From a virus (Duplodnaviria > Caudoviricetes), in the IMG/VR virus record IMGVR_UViG_3300025168_000467, positions 1 to 28,740 of that record: 28,740 nt of DNA. One strand, given 5' to 3'. Position numbers and translations under genes: made by a program. This document shows positions 4,125-11,375 of the stretch, piece by piece. The stretch's first letter is position 1; each line of letters opens with the position of its first letter. A model generated the notes under the pieces. It saw nothing but the letters and a program-made list of their open reading frames with translations, was not told the origin of the DNA and did not search any database.

Positions 4125-4164
4125 AAATAGATAGGCTTATAATTATAGGCTTATCTATTTTTTT
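4125..4164 (+). terminator. long AT-rich hairpin followed by a T-run; possible intrinsic terminator
   Basis: AAATAGATAGGCTTATA pairs with TATAGGCTTATCTATTT (G-U pairs included), followed by TTTT. Confidence 0.45.
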
Positions 4165-4195: not shown

Positions 4196-4223
4196 TTGAC
4201 TTTAAATCATAAATAACTAAATT
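4196..4223 (+). promoter_or_regulatory. candidate host sigma70 early promoter
   Basis: TTGACT (4196-4201), 16-bp spacer, TAAATT (4218-4223), upstream of the early transcript leader. Confidence 0.45.
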
Positions 4224-4270
4224 AAATATTGATTAAGGGTTTTGCATATTTCGCCCTGATAACAAAAATA

Positions 4271-4386
4271 TAGAGCCTTTGGCGGTTGCGTCCTTTTTGG
4301 GCGGTATCTGAACCGAGTTTGTTTTTAAAGCTAAAGGGAAGCCCTCTCTACCTGAAGGCGGTAGCATGTTTGCTAAGTAGGTCAGG
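4271..4386 (+). ncRNA. GC-rich multi-stem structured leader of unknown class
   Basis: Nested pairings TAGAG 4271-4275/CTCTA 4346-4350, CCTTTGGC 4276-4283/GCTAAAGG 4330-4337, CGGTT/AACCG, CGTCC/GGGCG, plus CTACC/GGTAG and TAGCA/TGCTA hairpins. No convincing ORF. Confidence 0.45.
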
Positions 4387-4391
4387 TTGTT

Positions 4392-4449
4392 TTGTTTGTC
4401 TGTAATTATTTATTACATTGATAAGAACAATTAAGTTCGAAACAAACAA
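4392..4449 (+). ncRNA. hammerhead ribozyme HHR1, type III, U3-A8 core variant
   Basis: Stem III TTGTTTGT/ACAAACAA, GTC triplet (cut after 4400), stem I TGTAAT/ATTACA, core TTGATAA 4418-4424, stem II GAAC/GTTC, GAAA 4439-4442. Confidence 0.85.
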
Positions 4450-4465
4450 CAACAAGGAAACAACA

Positions 4466-4711
4466 ATGAATACAGAAAAAAAACAAATACATGAAGCGGA
4501 TAAAGAATGGAAACTTGGATTAGGTATCGCATTTAGAGCGTTACTCGGTGTGCCTAATAGTAAAAAAAATCATGGTTTATATAATGATTTTATTCATGCT
4601 TATTGTCTTTTTAAAAAAGACCAAATTGTAAAATGTGGTGATATTCACAGAACATATCTAACATTACAATTAAAAAAATACGACAACACACATTATGAGG
4701 CGGCTCAATAG
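4466..4711 (+). CDS. early hypothetical protein (81 aa)
   Basis: AAGGA RBS, then ATG 4466. The track start at 4418 lies inside the ribozyme. Confidence 0.8.
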   Translation: MNTEKKQIHEADKEWKLGLGIAFRALLGVPNSKKNHGLYNDFIHAYCLFKKDQIVKCGDIHRTYLTLQLKKYDNTHYEAAQ

Positions 4712-4727
4712 AGCCGTTTATGTCTTA

Positions 4728-4777
4728 GTGTCTACATTTATAAAATGTACTGATGAGCTTATCTAAAAGCGAAACAC
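4728..4777 (+). ncRNA. hammerhead ribozyme HHR2, type III
   Basis: Stem III GTGT/ACAC, GTC (cut after 4732), stem I TACATTT/AAATGTA, CTGATGA 4750-4756, stem II GCTT/AAGC, GAAA 4771-4774. Confidence 0.93.
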
Positions 4778-4802
4778 AGCAACAACAACAAGGAAAACAA
4801 CA

Positions 4803-4946
4803 ATGACAAAACAACAAGTTGAACAACAACAACATCAACAATGGTTAAAGCGTCAGGTTAATATCAAAAAACCTGATACATCAAAGCATGATTTAAAGAT
4901 TGCTGAAATGCACATTAACAATCCATTTTTCAAAAGGGGGTTTTAA
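4803..4946 (+). CDS. early hypothetical protein (47 aa, Gln-rich N-terminus)
   Basis: CAA-rich leader and AAGGA RBS; MTKQQVEQQQHQQWLKRQVNIKKPDTSKHDLKIAEMHINNPFFKRGF. Confidence 0.75.
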   Translation: MTKQQVEQQQHQQWLKRQVNIKKPDTSKHDLKIAEMHINNPFFKRGF

Positions 4947-5032
4947 TGGAGTGGGAATATATTGTTTTATTTTTAGTTTGGATTGCACCTATTTTAATAT
5001 TTTGTTTAGATAAAGGGGAATTAAATGATTAG
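4946..5032 (+). CDS. 28-aa membrane peptide
   Basis: TAATG coupling, AGGGGG RBS; MEWEYIVLFLVWIAPILIFCLDKGELND. Confidence 0.65.
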   Translation: MEWEYIVLFLVWIAPILIFCLDKGELND

Positions 5033-5198
5033 AAATATATTAGAGTCTTTCACAATCGCTTTATCATTACCAATTTTATTATTTGCTCCTATACTTGGGA
5101 TAGTGGCACTGGCTAACGGTCACTTTGATTTAGCGTTTATTAGTTTTATTATAACCGCTATCGCTTTAGTTTTAAGCGGCATTTATAATGACTATTAA
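5025..5198 (+). CDS. 57-aa two-TM membrane protein
   Basis: AAGGGG RBS; MIRNILESFTIALSLPILLFAPILGIVALANGHFDLAFISFIITAIALVLSGIYNDY. Confidence 0.7.
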   Translation: MIRNILESFTIALSLPILLFAPILGIVALANGHFDLAFISFIITAIALVLSGIYNDY

Positions 5199-5409
5199 AA
5201 CAAGCATAGAATTGACTGATGATTGTATTGTTTATCAAGACAATAAAAAATTATTAATTGATTTACAGGCTACAAAGAAAAAAGCGGAGAATTTATATCA
5301 TGAGCTATTATGGTTTGATGAGATAAAAAAAGCTAATACAGTTAAATTTTTTTTAACAGGAATAAACTTAACTATTAACGAGGGCAGGGACGTTGAACCT
5401 GCTTTTTAA
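5188..5409 (+). CDS. early hypothetical protein (73 aa)
   Basis: ORF track; overlaps the upstream stop and ends just before HHR3. Confidence 0.75.
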   Translation: MTIKTSIELTDDCIVYQDNKKLLIDLQATKKKAENLYHELLWFDEIKKANTVKFFLTGINLTINEGRDVEPAF

Positions 5410-5413
5410 TCCA

Positions 5414-5469
5414 GTAACACTGATGAGCTTTAAATAAGCGAAACGCCCTGAAATATGGGCGTCTGTTAC
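5414..5469 (+). ncRNA. hammerhead ribozyme HHR3, type I
   Basis: Stem I GTAACA/TGTTAC, CTGATGA 5420-5426, stem II GCTT/AAGC, GAAA 5440-5443, stem III CGCCC/GGGCG, GTC (cut after 5463). Confidence 0.95.
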
Positions 5470-5512
5470 ATTTAGACGTAACAAACAACAACAACAACAA
5501 AGGACAAACAAC

Positions 5513-5920
5513 ATGAAATCTTACCAAATGACTAACCCAAGTTCAGGGAATGTGGTTAATAATCAATATACTATTTTTGACGGCTTAGGTAATACGTTTT
5601 TTCAGAGCTACCATACTATGATAGCTAAAATTAATGATTATGGAAAAGTTTTTTTAGATACTAATTACTGGAATTACTCACGCACTACAGGAAAATATAG
5701 AAATGAATTTCTTGGTGAACGTATAGCAGAGACAAGAAAAAAAATAGATAACGGTGAATATAAACTTGTAGACCTCAATGAAGAGTATGCAAAGCACCAA
5801 GAAGAGGAGCTAAAAAACAAATACTTTACAAAATGGAAGAGTGAAGAGGAGGAGAAGGCTCAAGCGTTTAGAAATGAGCGTGTAGCGTTAAGAAGAGAAT
5901 TAAACGGCTTTAGAGACTAA
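5513..5920 (+). CDS. early hypothetical protein (135 aa)
   Basis: CAA leader and AAAGGA RBS; FQSYHTMIA and YSRTTGKYRNEFLG motifs; charged C-terminal helix. Confidence 0.85.
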   Translation: MKSYQMTNPSSGNVVNNQYTIFDGLGNTFFQSYHTMIAKINDYGKVFLDTNYWNYSRTTGKYRNEFLGERIAETRKKIDNGEYKLVDLNEEYAKHQEEELKNKYFTKWKSEEEEKAQAFRNERVALRRELNGFRD

Positions 5921-5922
5921 CA

Positions 5923-5980
5923 AAAAGCGAAACGCCTAGAAATAGGCGTCCATAGTTTATAACTATGCTGATGAGCTTTT
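5923..5980 (+). ncRNA. hammerhead ribozyme HHR4, type II
   Basis: Stem II AAAAGC/GCTTTT, GAAA 5929-5932, stem III CGCCTA-gaaa-TAGGCG, GTC (cut after 5950), stem I CATAGTT/AACTATG, CTGATGA 5968-5974. Confidence 0.95.
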
Positions 5981-6004
5981 AACAACAACAAAAGGACAAA
6001 CAAC

Positions 6005-6184
6005 ATGAAAATAGATTTTTACACTGAAGATACAACAGAAGGAAAGCAACTTGTCATTGTATTTGAAAAATCAAAAGGCAAGTATCAACAAAGGATTATA
6101 GGACTATTAAAAGATATTAAAGTTTCAGAAAAAGAAGCGGAAAAAATTGAAAGTTTATTAATAGATTTAGAACATGTTAAATAA
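6005..6184 (+). CDS. early hypothetical protein (59 aa)
   Basis: AAAGGA RBS; MKIDFYTEDTTEGKQLVIVFEKSKGKYQQRIIGLLKDIKVSEKEAEKIESLLIDLEHVK. Confidence 0.8.
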   Translation: MKIDFYTEDTTEGKQLVIVFEKSKGKYQQRIIGLLKDIKVSEKEAEKIESLLIDLEHVK

Positions 6185-6284
6185 TCTTTTAATAATATTG
6201 GCTTTCGTTCCTGCTCTTTTTATTCTTTATGCAATAGAGAAAAAATGGACTGATAAACTTACTGATTATTTTAACAATAAGTAA
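6174..6284 (+). CDS. 36-aa membrane peptide
   Basis: MLNNLLIILAFVPALFILYAIEKKWTDKLTDYFNNK; the stop TAA lies in HHR5 stem I. Confidence 0.6.
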   Translation: MLNNLLIILAFVPALFILYAIEKKWTDKLTDYFNNK

Positions 6285-6343
6285 CACTGATGAGCTTTTA
6301 ATAAGCGAAATTAGACCGCATTTATTGCGGTTTAATCTGTTAC
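6281..6343 (+). ncRNA. hammerhead ribozyme HHR5, type I
   Basis: Stem I GTAACA/TGTTAC, CTGATGA 6287-6293, stem II GCTT/AAGC, GAAA 6307-6310, stem III TTAGACCGCA/TGCGGTTTAA, ATC triplet (cut after 6337). Confidence 0.93.
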
Positions 6344-6420
6344 AATCTAACATTTTTTAGAATTGCAACGCCAAACAATCTAATTTTTAGGGGTAATCTT
6401 ACCCTAATTTTTCTATTTTG

Positions 6421-6503
6421 TGATGACTAGACGGCAATCATTATTTCATAATGTGATGACTAGACGGCAATGCTCAAAATTCCATTTGATGACTAGACGG
6501 CAA
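6421..6503 (+). repeat. three exact 17-bp direct repeats TGATGACTAGACGGCAA with 33-bp period
   Basis: Copies at 6421-6437, 6454-6470 and 6487-6503, with unrelated 16-bp spacers. Confidence 0.95.
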
Positions 6504-6534
6504 CAACAAACAACAACAATAAGGGAAATATATT

Positions 6535-6966
6535 ATGCTTGATGATACTCTATTAGAAATTCCTAAATTTCTGAAAGACAACGCTATGAAGCCTGATACT
6601 ACCAAATCTGAACCTAAGTCTAAAATAGGTGATACCTATATAACTAAGGACGGTTGGGAAATGAAGTATAGCTCAGGCGGCTATTGGATACCTATAAAAG
6701 ATACCAATGCCGTTGAGTCTAATAGCAGGGAAGAGGTTAGACAATATATCTTAAATGAGTTTAAGTTATTACCGCCTAACTCAATTAAGAAAAAACCTTT
6801 TCTAAAACTATTGAGACGTAATGCTCCTGACATTAATCCTAGCTCTATTAATAGACAGCTTAACAACTTGCTAAAGCTGAGAGCTTTAGAGATAACTCAG
6901 GAATACAAGACAAAACGATTCGTTATTGGAGGTAAAAACTTTAACGCTTATTACAAAAAACTTTAG
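6535..6966 (+). CDS. early protein with an N-terminal FtsZ-tail-like peptide and a possible C-terminal winged-helix domain
   Basis: AAGGG RBS; N-terminus DDTLLEIPKFLK; C-terminal INPSSINRQLNNLLKLRALEI followed by a beta-hairpin-like segment. Confidence 0.8.
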   Translation: MLDDTLLEIPKFLKDNAMKPDTTKSEPKSKIGDTYITKDGWEMKYSSGGYWIPIKDTNAVESNSREEVRQYILNEFKLLPPNSIKKKPFLKLLRRNAPDINPSSINRQLNNLLKLRALEITQEYKTKRFVIGGKNFNAYYKKL

Positions 6967-7019
6967 AACGAAACGCCTAGAAATAGGCGTCTGTGGATTA
7001 ATTCCATACTGATGAGTTC
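6966..7019 (+). ncRNA. hammerhead ribozyme HHR6, type II
   Basis: Stem II GAAC/GTTC, GAAA 6970-6973, stem III CGCCTA-gaaa-TAGGCG, GTC (cut after 6991), stem I TGTGGA/TCCATA, CTGATGA 7009-7015. Confidence 0.93.
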
Positions 7020-7425: not shown

Positions 7426-7764
7426 ATGATGACTAAAGGATATAACTTACTAAAGATAATAGAGGAAATGCGTAAGTTTGACCCTTTGTTGGAAAGTCAA
7501 GCCATAGCAATATTTTTTGTGGTTTGCCTCAATGGAGGAAAAGACGGAATATCAATGCAGGATATTTCGGAGAAGCTAGACCTAGCTCAATCAACTGTTA
7601 GCAGAAATGTATTTAAACTATCATTTACTAATAGACACAGAGAGCGTGGAATAGATTTATTAGAAGCGTTTGAAGACCCTATGGAGAGAAGACGTAAGCT
7701 AGTAAAATTAACGGCTAAGGGAAAGCGAGTGTATGAGACACTTGCTGAGTTAGTCAAAAAATAG
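7426..7764 (+). CDS. MarR-family winged-helix transcriptional regulator (candidate lysogeny regulator)
   Basis: HTH ISMQDISEKLDLAQSTVSRNV and wing EDPMERRRKLVKLTAKG; directly upstream of the integrase. Confidence 0.9.
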   Translation: MMTKGYNLLKIIEEMRKFDPLLESQAIAIFFVVCLNGGKDGISMQDISEKLDLAQSTVSRNVFKLSFTNRHRERGIDLLEAFEDPMERRRKLVKLTAKGKRVYETLAELVKK

Positions 7765-7775
7765 AGGAGGATATT

Positions 7776-8666
7776 ATTAAAAATCCAAAACTACTAACTG
7801 AAATTCACAAAAAACTAACCCATAAAGGGTGGGAGTCTTTACAAGCTAAACGAGCTTTAAAAGTGATAGAGCTTTTAGGTCAAGCAATGCTTGTAACGGA
7901 AGTGAATGAGACTCATGTTGAGCATTTAGTTAATACGCTTGAGGAGCGAGGGCTACAAGGTAGCACCATTAATCGTTACTTAGCGTCTTTATCTAAAATG
8001 TTATCTTACGCACACAAAAGACATGCAATCTATCACATGGAGCGTATGCCTTTTATTGAGTGGCATGAGGAGAACGAAGGACGAGACCGCTATCTAATGC
8101 CTGAAGAAGAGCAGGAGATGATTAAGTTATTGACCGATTGGAATATGACTGACTATCTTGAGCTTTACTTATTCTTAATTGATACAGGTATGCGATTAGG
8201 GGAAGCTCTATCTTTTAAGAAGTCAAATGTAACTATCAATGAAGTTAACAATAAAAAGAAACTTGTTGTTAATCTAAAAGGTAGTCAGACCAAAAATGGT
8301 CATAAGAGAAGTATACCTTTGACAGAAAGAGCTAAATCTATTGTTTTACCATTGTATGACAATACTGAGCGTAATGACAAAATATTCTCTCATCTAAATT
8401 ATTGGAGAGCAGAAAATGTTTGGCGTAAGCTCAGAAAAGAAATGGACTTACAAGATGATAAAGATTTTGTAATACATTGTCTTAGACATACCTGTGCGAC
8501 AAGACTAGCACAGTCAGGTAAAATAGAATTGCATCTTGTAGGTGAAATGTTAGGTCATAGAAGTTGGGTAATGATTAAACGCTACTCACATTTAATACCT
8601 AGCAATTTATTAGGAGCGATAGATGTCTTGGATAATCATAATAATAGTCAATCCGTTACTGGATAG
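7776..8666 (+). CDS. int: tyrosine recombinase / phage integrase
   Basis: Catalytic residues R (TGMRLGE), K (TKNG), HCLRH, LGH and RY are intact. The frame is open upstream of GTG 7863 back to ATT 7776, behind GAGGAGG. Confidence 0.95.
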   Translation: MKNPKLLTEIHKKLTHKGWESLQAKRALKVIELLGQAMLVTEVNETHVEHLVNTLEERGLQGSTINRYLASLSKMLSYAHKRHAIYHMERMPFIEWHEENEGRDRYLMPEEEQEMIKLLTDWNMTDYLELYLFLIDTGMRLGEALSFKKSNVTINEVNNKKKLVVNLKGSQTKNGHKRSIPLTERAKSIVLPLYDNTERNDKIFSHLNYWRAENVWRKLRKEMDLQDDKDFVIHCLRHTCATRLAQSGKIELHLVGEMLGHRSWVMIKRYSHLIPSNLLGAIDVLDNHNNSQSVTG

Positions 8667-8751: not shown

Positions 8752-8794
<43 letters not shown>

Positions 8795-8866
8795 TTGTAC
8801 CTATCCTCAAGTAATTAGGTTGTTTAATTTTCCTCTGTTTGGCAGTATGTAGCCACTATCCGCTCC

Positions 8867-8924: not shown

Positions 8925-11375
8925 TTGACAACAACAAAACTTTTAGAAGTAGTACCTAATTATAATGACGAATTATCTCACGAAAAAGAGATGAAATTAC
9001 TTGGTCAACAACGCACCAATAAGCGTTTAAATTCCCATATACAAAGAGAAGAAGAGTCAGTGACTAGCTATGGTAAAGTTATGGTAGCCACGACAATCAG
9101 ACCTTTAGCAGATGCCATTGAACAGTATTTTAAGACTTGCCATCATGCCACTATTGGTCAGCCGCCTATCGCTTATGTAAAGATGTCTAATATTTCACCT
9201 GACATTCTAGCCTTAATTACAGGTAAACACATTATCAATACAATTACACAATCAAAACCATTAACCGCTACAAGCATATCACTAGGCGGTAAAGTGGAGA
9301 CTGAGGAAGCCTTAAAGAATTTTCAGGCGTTAAATCCTGAGCTATACGAGACAGTCAAACAAGACCTCGACAAGAGGTCATACAATTACGGCTACAAAAG
9401 ACGTAAATTAAAAGAGAGTGCTAAAAGAGGTGAGGTATCTTGGGAAGAGTGGACTACTCCTCAAAAACTTCATGTAGGATTAAGGCTTATTGAGCTGATG
9501 ATACAATCTACAGGCATGATTGAGATAGCTACAGAAACTATTAATCGTAAGAAAACTAAAATTATTAAGCAAACACAGAAAACTAGAGAATGGATTAAAA
9601 ATAGAAATGGTTTCAATGAGCTTTTAAATCCTGAGTATTTACCAACTGTTATGATGCCTAAACAATGGACATCTCCTGAAGGTGGTGGTTACTGGACGAA
9701 AGAGCTTCCTGAGTTAGACTTGGTAAAACAAAAAAATAAGATGTTTAAAAAAGAGCTTGAAAATTTTGAGATGCCTGAAGTTTATAGTGCAATTAACAAC
9801 ATGCAGAATACGCCATTTAAAATTAACAGTTATATCTTAGGCGTACTACAGGAAGCATGGGACAGAGGTTTGTCTGTTGGTGGTTTACCTCCAAGTGAAA
9901 ATATAGATGTACCTAACAAGCCTACTGACATTGATACAAATGAAGTAGCTCGTAAAGCATGGAAGAAAGAGGCTGTTATTGCTCATACGGAAAATGCTAG
10001 AATGTTTAGTAAGAGATTACTGTACGCAAAGATAATCTGGTCTGCACAAAAATTTAAAGACTACGAGTCTATTTACTTTCCTTTACAAATGGATTTTAGA
10101 GGACGAGTATATTGTGTACCTGCGTTCTTAAATTATCAAAGCATTGAAGGAGCTAAGGCTCTCTTACAATTCTCTAATGGTAAAGAAATAACGGAAGAGA
10201 ATAACGGTGCGTTTTGGTTAGCCGTACATGGAGCTAACATGTGGGGTGAAGATAAAATTACCCTTGAGGAGAGAGTTAAGTGGGTACATAAGAATGAAGA
10301 CATGTTTTTTAAATGTGCTGATGACCCATTTACAAATAGAGATTGGGAACAAGCCTCAAATCCATTCATGGCTTTAGCGTGGTGTGAGGAGTGGTGGCAG
10401 TTTAAACAACAAGGCTACGGATATGTTTCTAATTTACCAGTGTCTATTGACGGTTCTTGTAATGGTCTGCAACTTTATTCTTTAATGTTAAAAGATGCAC
10501 AGGCAGGTAAGCTCGTTAATGTAGTGCCGTCAGATAAGCCTCAAGACATTTATCAAATAGTAGCGGATAATGTTAATGAGAAATTAAAAGAAGATGCAAG
10601 AGAAGGTAAGCCATATGCACAGCAATGGTTAGACTACGGCGTTAAACGTAGCACAACTAAAAGAAGTATTATGACAATTTGTTATGGCTCAACAAGGTAC
10701 TCATGCACAGACTTTGTTGTTGAAGACTTAACAAAAAGAAAAGATAAAGGAGAAGAACACCCTTTTGATATTGATGTCTTTAGACCTGCCTCTTATTTAG
10801 CAGGTGTGATATGGGATAGTATTGGAGACAACTTAACCTCAGCAAGAATAGGTATGGATTACCTTCAAAGTATAGCGAGGATTGTTTCAAAAGAACAATT
10901 ACCTATTCACTGGTTAACGCCTATTGGATTTCCAGTGTATCAATCTTATCCTGAAATGAAATCTAAAAGAGTTAAGGCAATGTTAATGGGTGAGGTAATT
11001 AAACCTCGTATTAATACTGAAACAGATAAAACAGATAGGCTTAGAATGTCTAATGCAATAGCACCTAATGTTATTCATTCGATAGACTCAGCATGTCTTT
11101 TAAAAACTGTAAACTTAGCTAATCTTAATGGGGTAAGAAATTTTGCAAATGTGCATGACAGTTTTGGAACAACGGCGGCAGATGTAGAGACTTTAATAAC
11201 ATGTTTAAAAGAGTCTTTTATTAATGTGTTTACACAGACAAACGTCCTCCAAGATTTTAGAGATGATGTGGAAGCTCAGTTACCTGAGAAGCTACGTCAT
11301 AAATTACCACAAGTACCTGCACAAGGTGATTTGGAAATAGAAAATCTCAGACAATGTGACTTTTTCTTTGCCTAA
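8925..11375 (+). CDS. T7-like single-subunit RNA polymerase (gp1)
   Basis: DFRGRVY, DGSCNGLQ, RSTTKRSIMTICYG, HDSFGT and C-terminal FFFA; TAAGGAG RBS with a TTG start. Confidence 0.98.
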   Translation: MTTTKLLEVVPNYNDELSHEKEMKLLGQQRTNKRLNSHIQREEESVTSYGKVMVATTIRPLADAIEQYFKTCHHATIGQPPIAYVKMSNISPDILALITGKHIINTITQSKPLTATSISLGGKVETEEALKNFQALNPELYETVKQDLDKRSYNYGYKRRKLKESAKRGEVSWEEWTTPQKLHVGLRLIELMIQSTGMIEIATETINRKKTKIIKQTQKTREWIKNRNGFNELLNPEYLPTVMMPKQWTSPEGGGYWTKELPELDLVKQKNKMFKKELENFEMPEVYSAINNMQNTPFKINSYILGVLQEAWDRGLSVGGLPPSENIDVPNKPTDIDTNEVARKAWKKEAVIAHTENARMFSKRLLYAKIIWSAQKFKDYESIYFPLQMDFRGRVYCVPAFLNYQSIEGAKALLQFSNGKEITEENNGAFWLAVHGANMWGEDKITLEERVKWVHKNEDMFFKCADDPFTNRDWEQASNPFMALAWCEEWWQFKQQGYGYVSNLPVSIDGSCNGLQLYSLMLKDAQAGKLVNVVPSDKPQDIYQIVADNVNEKLKEDAREGKPYAQQWLDYGVKRSTTKRSIMTICYGSTRYSCTDFVVEDLTKRKDKGEEHPFDIDVFRPASYLAGVIWDSIGDNLTSARIGMDYLQSIARIVSKEQLPIHWLTPIGFPVYQSYPEMKSKRVKAMLMGEVIKPRINTETDKTDRLRMSNAIAPNVIHSIDSACLLKTVNLANLNGVRNFANVHDSFGTTAADVETLITCLKESFINVFTQTNVLQDFRDDVEAQLPEKLRHKLPQVPAQGDLEIENLRQCDFFFA

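What the first reader, a model, noticed from the sequence alone, without database searches (positions are those of the whole stretch)
4392..7019. Six hammerhead ribozymes punctuate the early operon: a self-processing phage early transcript
Seen: six complete hammerhead folds on the coding strand within 2.6 kb, each with the core (CUGAUGA in five), GAAA, an NUH triplet and three stems. Predicted cuts fall after 4400, 4732, 5463, 5950, 6337 and 6991. All lie at gene boundaries, and I saw none elsewhere in the window. Cleavage would give pieces of 332, 731, 487, 387 and 654 nt carrying 1, 4, 1, 2 and 1 ORFs, plus a final piece leading into marR-int. Known: T7 cuts its equivalent early polycistron at intergenic host RNase III sites. 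Inference: this phage replaces that host-dependent processing with ribozymes, yielding 5'-OH mRNAs that are poor substrates for 5'-monophosphate-stimulated decay. Hammerheads have been reported in phage and prophage DNA, but I do not know of a characterised ordered array serving as the processing system of a T7-like early region.
Basis: partly seen in the sequence, partly recalled or inferred. Interest (0 to 1): 0.95.

Follow-up and report, generated by a model that had tools for sequence, protein, structure and literature searches.

The report
Hammerheads replace RNase III in pelagiphages
Six hammerhead motifs (RNAs predicted to cut themselves) sit between the first genes of an ocean phage that likely infects SAR11 bacteria; such arrays have been known since 2011, but related phages carry either a hammerhead or a T7-style, predicted RNase III cutting stem at the same gene junction, so the ribozymes likely do the message-trimming job of a host enzyme.

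Summary
Observation confirmed: six complete hammerheads (types III, III, I, II, I, II) at the stated cuts, none elsewhere, none in 100 shuffles at strict settings. The phage is an HTVC019P-type pelagiphage. Arrays are clade-wide: 200 hits in 366 kb of early regions, 0 in 1,232 kb elsewhere, including cultured phages.

The kind is known. Perreault 2011 showed that triple arrays cleave, and the loci carrying their primers are T7-like proviruses with the array at the homologous position. This scan has 37 earlier phage-array findings, one of them with an RNase III swap.

Added here: upstream of one orthologous gene, 18 of 18 informative junctions carry either a hammerhead (7) or a T7-R1.1-like stem (11), never both. 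Both devices are predicted to leave a 5'-terminal hairpin on the downstream piece. Type III always comes first (26 of 26 arrays). The first cut would release an uncatalogued, co-varying ~120-nt leader RNA.

Likely function: processing into end-protected mRNAs. Nothing was tested in vivo; single-transcript status is unproven; the likely host family has RNase III. New member of a known kind; interest 0.55.

The parts
4196..4223 (+). Candidate sigma-70-type early promoter (TTGACT-16-TAAATT); inferred only
   Evidence: One search lists it, but the scan is at chance level (21 found, 22.7 expected); TTGACT is kept in L014 and L015
4273..4389 (+). Uncatalogued structured leader RNA (long-range 8-bp P1 plus a second co-varying helix), predicted to be released by HH1
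   Evidence: P1: 5 of 8 pairs change on both sides, 98% of cells paired, 13 sequences; second helix >=6 bp in 19 of 25 vs 111 of 568 cross-pairings; no relevant Rfam match; single-sequence MFE z 0.17
4392..4449 (+). HH1, type III hammerhead with U3-A8 core swap, predicted cut after 4400
   Evidence: U3-A8 is a known natural, active covariation (PMC3088659 passage)
4466..4711 (+). ORF, 81 aa, no family
4698..4719 (+). GC-rich hairpin predicted to cap the 3' end of piece 1, just upstream of the internal type III cut
   Evidence: the same feature in 5 of 5 distinct internal type III contexts
4728..4777 (+). HH2, type III hammerhead, predicted cut after 4732
4803..5409 (+). Four small coupled ORFs (4803-4946, 4946-5032, 5025-5198, 5188-5409), function unknown
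5414..5469 (+). HH3, type I hammerhead, predicted cut after 5463
5464..5483 (+). Predicted 5'-terminal hairpin of the HH3 product: a second copy of the stem I 5' strand pairs with the first six nucleotides after the cut
   Evidence: co-varies with stem I in 25 of 60 distinct type I products
5513..5920 (+). ORF, 135 aa, phrog_21575; DUF8033-like by ESM Atlas (score 0.90, a lead)
5923..5980 (+). HH4, type II hammerhead, predicted cut after 5950
6005..6284 (+). Two ORFs (6005-6184; 6174-6284, whose stop codon lies inside HH5 stem I)
6281..6343 (+). HH5, type I hammerhead with AUC triplet, predicted cut after 6337
6425..6501 (+). Three exact copies of GACTAGACGGC at 33-nt spacing; unexplained; could mark an internal promoter or a protein-binding site
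   Evidence: 3 exact copies; early-region and + strand only in the 21 loci checked
6535..6966 (+). ORF, 143 aa, weak phrog_436 match, function unknown
6966..7019 (+). HH6, type II hammerhead starting at the last base of the stop codon, predicted cut after 6991
7426..7764 (+). MarR-like regulator (context)
7863..8666 (+). Integrase (context)
8925..11375 (+). T7-like RNA polymerase (context), 76.8% identical to HTVC109P

Best explanation
The six elements are complete hammerhead folds that likely self-cleave the phage's early transcript into one- to four-gene mRNAs whose ends are predicted to be hairpin-protected, the job that host RNase III does at the matching junctions of phage T7. Shown: the folds, their confinement to early gene junctions on the coding strand, the fixed order (type III first), and the exchange with a T7-R1.1-like stem at one orthologous junction in relatives. 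Inferred steps: (1) host RNA polymerase starts near 4230; (2) each ribozyme cuts soon after it is made; (3) types I and II leave stem III as a 3'-terminal hairpin on the upstream gene, types II and III leave stem I as a 5'-terminal hairpin on the downstream gene, and the missing cap is supplied separately where a type lacks it (a downstream copy of stem I for type I, an upstream GC hairpin for internal type III); (4) each piece then has its own unstructured CAA-rich leader and Shine-Dalgarno sequence and is translated and degraded independently; (5) the first cut frees the structured leader as a separate RNA.
For: Six folds, 0 in strict shuffles. 200 hits in 365,858 early bases and 0 in 1,232,161 other bases across 171 loci; no hit is read through by an ORF. 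Stem pairs vary widely around a fixed core in 132 distinct sequences (partly circular, since the descriptor demands pairing). U at nucleotide 7 after the cut in 48 of 48 type II/III, a feature the descriptor does not ask for. Arrays at the homologous site of T7-like proviruses cleave in vitro and in E. coli (PMC3088659 section 6). A motif that recovers three T7 RNase III stems finds 20 hits, all in early regions on +, and none in 24 listed early regions with three or more hammerheads. Upstream of the 'MQIAK' gene: 11 stems, 7 hammerheads, never both; one further locus is truncated (alignment). The states are interleaved among near-identical marR/int sequences (quick tree). T7 R1.1 is cut at nt 5887 (PMC8708148), which is CCUUUAU|GA in L300; in the same register 19 of 19 distinct pelagiphage stems start a >=4-bp hairpin at that G (shuffle mean 1.6, max 9). 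Type I product hairpin in 25 of 60 (shuffle mean 1.7, max 7; foreign hexamers 4 of 250). Type III first in 26 of 26 mixed arrays.
Against: No cleavage or RNA-end data for this phage. One transcript is not shown: the promoter scan is at chance level, and the triple GACTAGACGGC after HH5 could be an internal promoter. The RNase III-like stems are followed by a U-run and could be terminators; RNase III has no strong sequence consensus. The swap is seen in the HTVC019P subgroup, not in the window's own closest relatives. 35 of 60 type I products lack the strict product hairpin, including HH5's. Stem I has competing folds, and type I motifs have A rather than U at nucleotide 7 (77 of 82), so cleavage may be slow or partial. 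The likely host family has RNase J (strong match in 12 of 13), which can degrade 5'-OH ribozyme products (glmS: PMC6765202 passage; the role of RNase J1 is recalled). Distant pelagiphages have neither device by my tests (0 of 9), so processing is dispensable or done otherwise. Loci are not independent samples.
Confidence: 0.7

Rival explanations
1. Cleavage is a decay timer: each cut gives RNase J and 3' exonucleases an entry point, so early host-takeover genes are shut off quickly, as with the glmS ribozyme.
For: RNase J, RNase E and RppH are present in the likely host family. glmS cleavage lowers expression (PMC6765202). Some T7 RNase sites are followed by a drop in reads (PMC6938266).
Against: Hairpins are conserved at both new ends, with extra ones added where the ribozyme type does not supply them. 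A decay signal would not need them.
Confidence: 0.1
2. The type I and II ribozymes are translation-coupled switches. The stop codon lies in or beside stem I/II, and the downstream stem I copy forms an inactive fold, so cleavage is partial and depends on ribosome traffic on the upstream gene.
For: The upstream stop lies within -10..+15 nt of the ribozyme start in 48 of 80 type I and 14 of 17 type II. For HH3 the alternative hairpin wins in MFE folds with flanks.
Against: Compact genomes place any element next to stop codons. The RNase III-like stem sits at the same distance and has the same product hairpin, which fits product release and capping. Stem I is complete before the competing copy is transcribed. 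Not exclusive of the best explanation.
Confidence: 0.1
3. The ribozyme-plus-leader units are mainly recombination joints for gene cassettes; cleavage is neutral and they spread by hitch-hiking.
For: L014 lacks ORF1 together with HH2, and L015 lacks HH4; conserved blocks centre on the ribozymes while the genes between them differ.
Against: The catalytic core is kept while stems diverge, which lowers sequence identity and so recombination. An unrelated RNase III-like stem fills the same slot.
Confidence: 0.07
4. Pieces flanked by two ribozymes are ligated into circular mRNAs.
For: 5'-OH and 2',3'-cyclic phosphate ends are RtcB substrates (recalled).
Against: RtcB found in 0 of 13 host-family genomes (genomes incomplete). 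Perreault et al. detected no circular or spliced products. RNase III ends would not fit this route.
Confidence: 0.03

Closest known systems
Clustered hammerheads flanking genes in prophages: Agrobacterium tumefaciens, Azorhizobium caulinodans and Clostridium scindens triple arrays (Perreault et al. 2011, PMC3088659)
   Same: Several hammerheads of mixed type flank single genes or short blocks on the coding strand, upstream of marR-integrase. IMG/VR proviruses carrying the paper's primers encode a T7-like RNAP; L259 has marR 37.5% identical to the window's, and L260 has terL 58% identical, followed by types III, III, I.
   Different: Six rather than three; a marine pelagiphage clade with cultured members; canonical 4-bp stem II. 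The paper calls the loci only 'presumably a prophage', leaves the purpose unknown and makes no RNase III comparison in the parts I read.
Phage T7 early-region RNase III processing sites (R0.3, R0.5, R1, R1.1, R1.3; list of five recalled)
   Same: [quoted passage not shown] Relatives of this phage carry stems in the R1.1 register.
   Different: Self-cleavage with 5'-OH and cyclic-phosphate ends instead of host-enzyme cleavage. The window itself has no such stem, and T7's early region has no hammerhead.
Halovirus HF1/HF2 HHphage hammerhead (PMC3088659 discussion)
   Same: A hammerhead before the first ORF of an early polycistronic transcript; the mapped 5' end lies within 3 nt of the cut.
   Different: A single variant-core ribozyme in an archaeal virus, not an array.

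Membership tests
Hammerhead ribozyme | Core C3-U4-G5-A6-N7-G8-A9 and G12-A13-A14 | tested here: met
   CUGAUGA in five; UUGAUAA (U3-A8 swap, a known active variant) in HH1; GAAA in all six
Hammerhead ribozyme | A15.1-U16.1 pair and NUH triplet | tested here: met
   GUC in five, AUC in one
Hammerhead ribozyme | Three helices around the core | tested here: met
   stem I 6-7 bp, stem II 4-6 bp, stem III 4-11 bp; pair types vary across 132 homologues
Hammerhead ribozyme | Tertiary contact between stems I and II for activity at low Mg2+ | tested here: inconclusive
   U at nt 7 after the cut in 48 of 48 type II/III fits the U1.7-A contact (recalled); type I has A there (77 of 82); no pseudoknot was identified
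Hammerhead ribozyme | Rfam gathering score for a hammerhead model | tested here: not met
   Best scores 36.3 vs 48.5 (HH2) and 24.6 vs 56.3 (HH3). This is a curation threshold, not a structural criterion; L227 and L241, which also hold descriptor hits, are missed too
Hammerhead ribozyme | Site-specific self-cleavage | not testable with these tools
   Needs in vitro transcription; 14 of 18 consensus hammerheads were active in PMC3088659
Clustered prophage hammerhead arrays (Perreault 2011) | Several hammerheads flanking single genes or short blocks on the coding strand | tested here: met
Clustered prophage hammerhead arrays (Perreault 2011) | Temperate-phage context near an integrase | tested here: met
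   marR and integrase follow the array; same order as in L259
T7 RNase III processing system (works like) | Host RNase III cuts an intergenic stem | tested here: not met
   No R1.1-like stem in the window; not a member, although relatives carry such stems at junctions where others have hammerheads
T7 RNase III processing system (works like) | One early polycistron from promoters at the genome's left end | tested here: inconclusive
   All ORFs co-directional; promoter scan at chance level; no RNA data
T7 RNase III processing system (works like) | Products are stabilised mRNAs | not testable with these tools
   Only predicted terminal hairpins
HTVC019P-type pelagiphage (Autographiviridae) | T7-like RNAP nearest to Pelagibacter phages; marR-integrase-RNAP order | tested here: met
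   76.8% to HTVC109P, and 16 of the 17 best rows are named Pelagibacter phages; same gene order as HTVC109P
HTVC019P-type pelagiphage (Autographiviridae) | attP matching a host tRNA | tested here: inconclusive
   tRNA-like stretch 8752-8839; no match within 3 mismatches in 5 incomplete host-family genomes

The most novel reading that the evidence does not exclude
Early operons of T7-like pelagiphages are built from interchangeable processing cassettes, a hammerhead or an RNase III site, under one design rule: every product gets a hairpin at both ends, which dictates which circular permutation goes where. The first cut also matures a new class of ~120-nt structured phage RNA with a function of its own, such as an antiterminator, a decoy or an anti-defence RNA. 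If so, this explains why phages carry all three hammerhead topologies, and it can be tested in cultured HTVC109P, HTVC019P and HTVC105P.
Probability: 0.4. Interest if true: 0.8.

Novelty: new member of a known kind. Interest (0 to 1): 0.55.

Why it matters
The biological role of bacterial and phage hammerheads is described as largely unresolved (PMC6765202). This clade offers a natural swap experiment: the same junction holds a ribozyme in some phages and a T7-type RNase III stem in others, and cultured phage-host pairs exist for both states (HTVC109P 3 hammerheads; HTVC019P 2 hammerheads plus 2 stems; HTVC105P 0 plus 2). End-mapping in those infections would settle whether phage hammerheads are mRNA-maturation devices. 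It would also link the 2011 arrays to T7 early-mRNA processing. The array as such is not surprising any more.

Tried and rejected
Rfam whole-window scan missed all six ribozymes. Gathering scans of 19 pelagiphage/roseophage loci and 9 prophage loci found no ribozyme of any class, so a switch to twister, pistol or similar classes in hammerhead-less relatives was not detected, but the scans are insensitive here. No RNA holder was listed by the look-up of sequencing runs; read laying was not used. A generic long-hairpin test for RNase III sites did not discriminate and was replaced by the T7-derived motif. The promoter scan was at chance level. The attP-like tRNA stretch had no match in 5 host-family genomes, and ARAGORN found no tRNA. 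Early ORFs have no Pfam family above the cut-off; the Atlas gave only DUF8033 for 5513-5920 and nothing useful for 6535-6966, so an anti-defence role is not shown. The leader RNA has no thermodynamic signal on its own (z 0.17). Likenesses of the leader to RNase P, group I intron and HDV-like cores are recalled only; the pseudoknot they need is not kept in the window's copy, so I do not claim them. GACTAGACGGC as a MarR operator is rejected because it occurs in phages without marR; as a phage RNAP promoter it is unlikely because the full HTVC109P genome has it only in the first 1.5 kb. Among distant bacterial T7-like prophage loci (L178-L258), only L227, L229/L230 and L241 had hammerheads, so the array is not a general feature of T7-like prophages. 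Literature searches for a paper placing hammerheads in pelagiphages or Autographiviridae gave no such title in the listings; searches gave no statement that the Agrobacterium locus is T7-like. The careful tree did not finish; the quick tree is cited.
Full report
1. Observation. I wrote a descriptor for the three hammerhead topologies and ran it on both strands of the window. At strict settings, 100 dinucleotide shuffles of the window and 500 of the region gave none; at relaxed settings the mean was 0.07 per window. HH1 has the U3-A8 core swap, which Perreault et al. report as a natural, active covariation. Piece sizes and ORF counts are as stated. Rfam misses all six in a whole-window scan. 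Local scans give sub-threshold hits for HH2 (E 3.5e-6) and HH3 (E 0.24) only.

2. The phage. Gene content is T7-like, with marR, integrase and RNAP after the array. The RNAP is 76.8% identical to that of Pelagibacter phage HTVC109P, so this is an HTVC019P-type pelagiphage and the host is likely SAR11 (inferred; the attP check gave no match). The early ORFs have no informative family.

3. Distribution. I fetched relatives by integrase, RNAP and MarR and scanned them. After dropping 7 same-contig duplicates, 171 loci gave 200 hammerhead hits in 365,858 bases between lysozyme/terL (or the contig start) and marR/RNAP, and 0 in 1,232,161 other bases. Among complete early regions: RNAP >=65% identical, 17 of 22 have at least one and 14 have three or more; 55-64%, 18 of 18 and 8; under 55%, 0 of 9. 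The five zeros in the first group hold hammerheads with core insertions. Cultured phages: HTVC109P 3, Eistla 3, HTVC031P 3, HTVC168P 2, HTVC019P 2, and HTVC105P, HTVC309P, HTVC200P and CRP-171 0. Only HTVC109P was fetched whole, so leaders at the far end of linear records could be missed. Six is the highest count seen (the window and L005). Many loci are close kin, so the counts are not independent events.

4. Precedent. Perreault et al. 2011 (PMC3088659; I read section 6, part 1 of the discussion, passages, supplement 2 and part 1 of supplement 10) describe clustered hammerheads flanking genes in prophages, propose processing into operon- or gene-length mRNAs, and show cleavage of three triple arrays in vitro and of one in E. 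coli. One primer from each of two loci matches one IMG/VR provirus each, and both encode a T7-like RNAP. L259 has two type II hits 940 nt apart (the published ArdA piece; ArdA confirmed), then marR and integrase; my descriptor recovered 2 of the 3 published ribozymes there. L260 has terL followed by types III, III, I. So the tested arrays already lie in the early region of temperate T7-like phages, although the authors did not say so in what I read. A 2019 review (PMC6765202, passages) repeats the processing idea and calls the purpose unresolved. This scan holds 37 earlier findings of such arrays. I did not find pelagiphage hammerheads in print (listings only). [quoted passage not shown]

5. 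Exchange with RNase III-like stems. Intergenic regions of HTVC105P and HTVC309P have CUUAAAG...CUUUGAG stems right after stop codons. A motif that recovers three T7 processing stems (T7 863, 1438, 5858) finds 20 pelagiphage hits, all in early regions on +, none elsewhere, and none in the 24 listed early regions with three or more hammerheads; one further, incomplete locus (L120) has three hammerheads and one stem at another junction. Upstream of one orthologous gene (starting MQIAK), 19 distinct junctions were found: 11 with the stem, 7 with a hammerhead, none with both, and 1 truncated. For 3 hammerhead and 4 stem loci the upstream gene is also the same. The two states are interleaved among near-identical marR/integrase sequences, for example L131/L133 and L103/L104 (quick tree). 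T7 R1.1 is cut at nt 5887 (PMC8708148, passages), which is CCUUUAU|GA in L300. In that register all 19 distinct pelagiphage stems begin a hairpin of at least 4 bp at the G after the cut (shuffle mean 1.6, max 9). A terminator reading stays possible, because a U-run follows, but that U-run is the loop of the downstream hairpin. After I had found this, a look-up showed that the scan noted the same swap in another genome (e1-5355597); that note is not independent proof. The likely host family has RNase III (13 of 14), RNase E (13 of 13), RNase J (strong match in 12 of 13) and RppH (5 of 5; name recalled), and no RtcB was found (0 of 13). These genomes were drawn as the family of G005, whose record title is an uncultured Pelagibacteraceae bacterium.

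6. Design rules. Of 130 distinct sequences (82 I, 30 III, 18 II; one non-canonical hit and four non-pelagiphage loci dropped), type III precede all others in 26 of 26 mixed arrays. This fits end protection: types I and II leave stem III on the upstream gene, while type III leaves none and so suits the first position. Where a type III is internal, a separate GC hairpin sits just upstream (5 of 5). Types II and III leave stem I at the 5' end of the downstream piece. Type I would leave six unpaired bases, but 25 of 60 distinct products carry a downstream complement that changes with stem I (shuffle mean 1.7; foreign hexamers 4 of 250); 35 of 60 do not meet the strict test, HH5 among them. That 5'-terminal hairpins block RppH, RNase E and RNase J is recalled knowledge. 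Stop codons lie within -10..+15 nt of the ribozyme start in 48 of 80 type I and 14 of 17 type II, which leaves room for translation coupling.

7. Leader RNA. The ~120 nt before HH1 (4273-4389) form a conserved structure. P1 has two-sided changes at 5 of 8 pairs, with 98% of cells paired; slid controls give 20-57% for the whole structure. A second helix of at least 6 bp is found in 19 of 25 sequences, against 111 of 568 cross-pairings and a shuffle mean of 7.1, max 14. A model built from 13 sequences finds one copy per locus at the start of the early region in further phages, including HTVC109P. In a pattern scan of IMG/VR, 24 of 25 distinct copies have a type III cut 65-104 nt downstream. There is no relevant Rfam match, and no folding-energy signal for the single sequence. 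Other relatives hold unrelated leaders in the same slot, as earlier scan notes also say. Its function is unknown; my best guess is an antitermination or decoy RNA, at low confidence.

8. Mechanism and verdict. Most likely (0.7) the ribozymes mature one early transcript into independently capped mRNAs, standing in for RNase III sites. That they are real, active hammerheads is about 0.95 likely. Rivals are a decay timer (0.1), a translation-coupled switch (0.1), neutral cassette joints (0.07) and circularisation (0.03). It works like T7 early processing but is not a member of that system; it is a member of the clustered phage hammerhead arrays of 2011. Novelty: new member of a known kind. Interest 0.55: the array is not surprising, but the swap, the ordering rule and cultured hosts make an open question directly testable. 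Other papers consulted: PMC6938266, PMC1540722 and PMC6630229 (passages only).

Noticed in passing
L035:6317-6398, L036, L076:4151-4231, L056:5992-6077: Type I hammerheads with two extra hairpins between A9 and stem II; different sequences but the same predicted fold in L056 versus L035/L076. L039:6655 has a 1-nt insertion there.
   Followed up: partly
window 6425-6501: GACTAGACGGC three times at 33-nt spacing; clade-wide, early region and + strand only, sometimes inside hammerhead stem III; unexplained.
   Followed up: partly
window 4273-4389; L087, L089, L092, L120, L142, L147, L177, L014: The 5' leader slot holds several unrelated GC-rich leader classes in close relatives; only the window's class was analysed.
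   Followed up: partly
window 8752-8839: tRNA-Phe-like fragment between integrase and RNAP, probably attP; no match in 5 host-family genomes.
   Followed up: partly
L227:7080-7632, L229:7967, L241:3199: Hammerheads upstream of marR/integrase/RNAP in distant T7-like prophages (Chelatococcus; Melainabacteria and Flavobacteriales MAG contigs).
   Followed up: no
L254:6525-7538: Seven tandem ar14 sRNA matches on the minus strand upstream of a T7-like RNAP locus.
   Followed up: no
window 4125-4160: 16-bp AT-rich hairpin with a U-tract after the lysozyme gene; probable terminator or genome-end element.
   Followed up: no
window 4450-4465, 4778-4802, 5484-5512, 5981-6004: Every processed piece has an unstructured CAA-repeat leader before its Shine-Dalgarno sequence; the same leader follows the RNase III-like stems in relatives.
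   Followed up: partly
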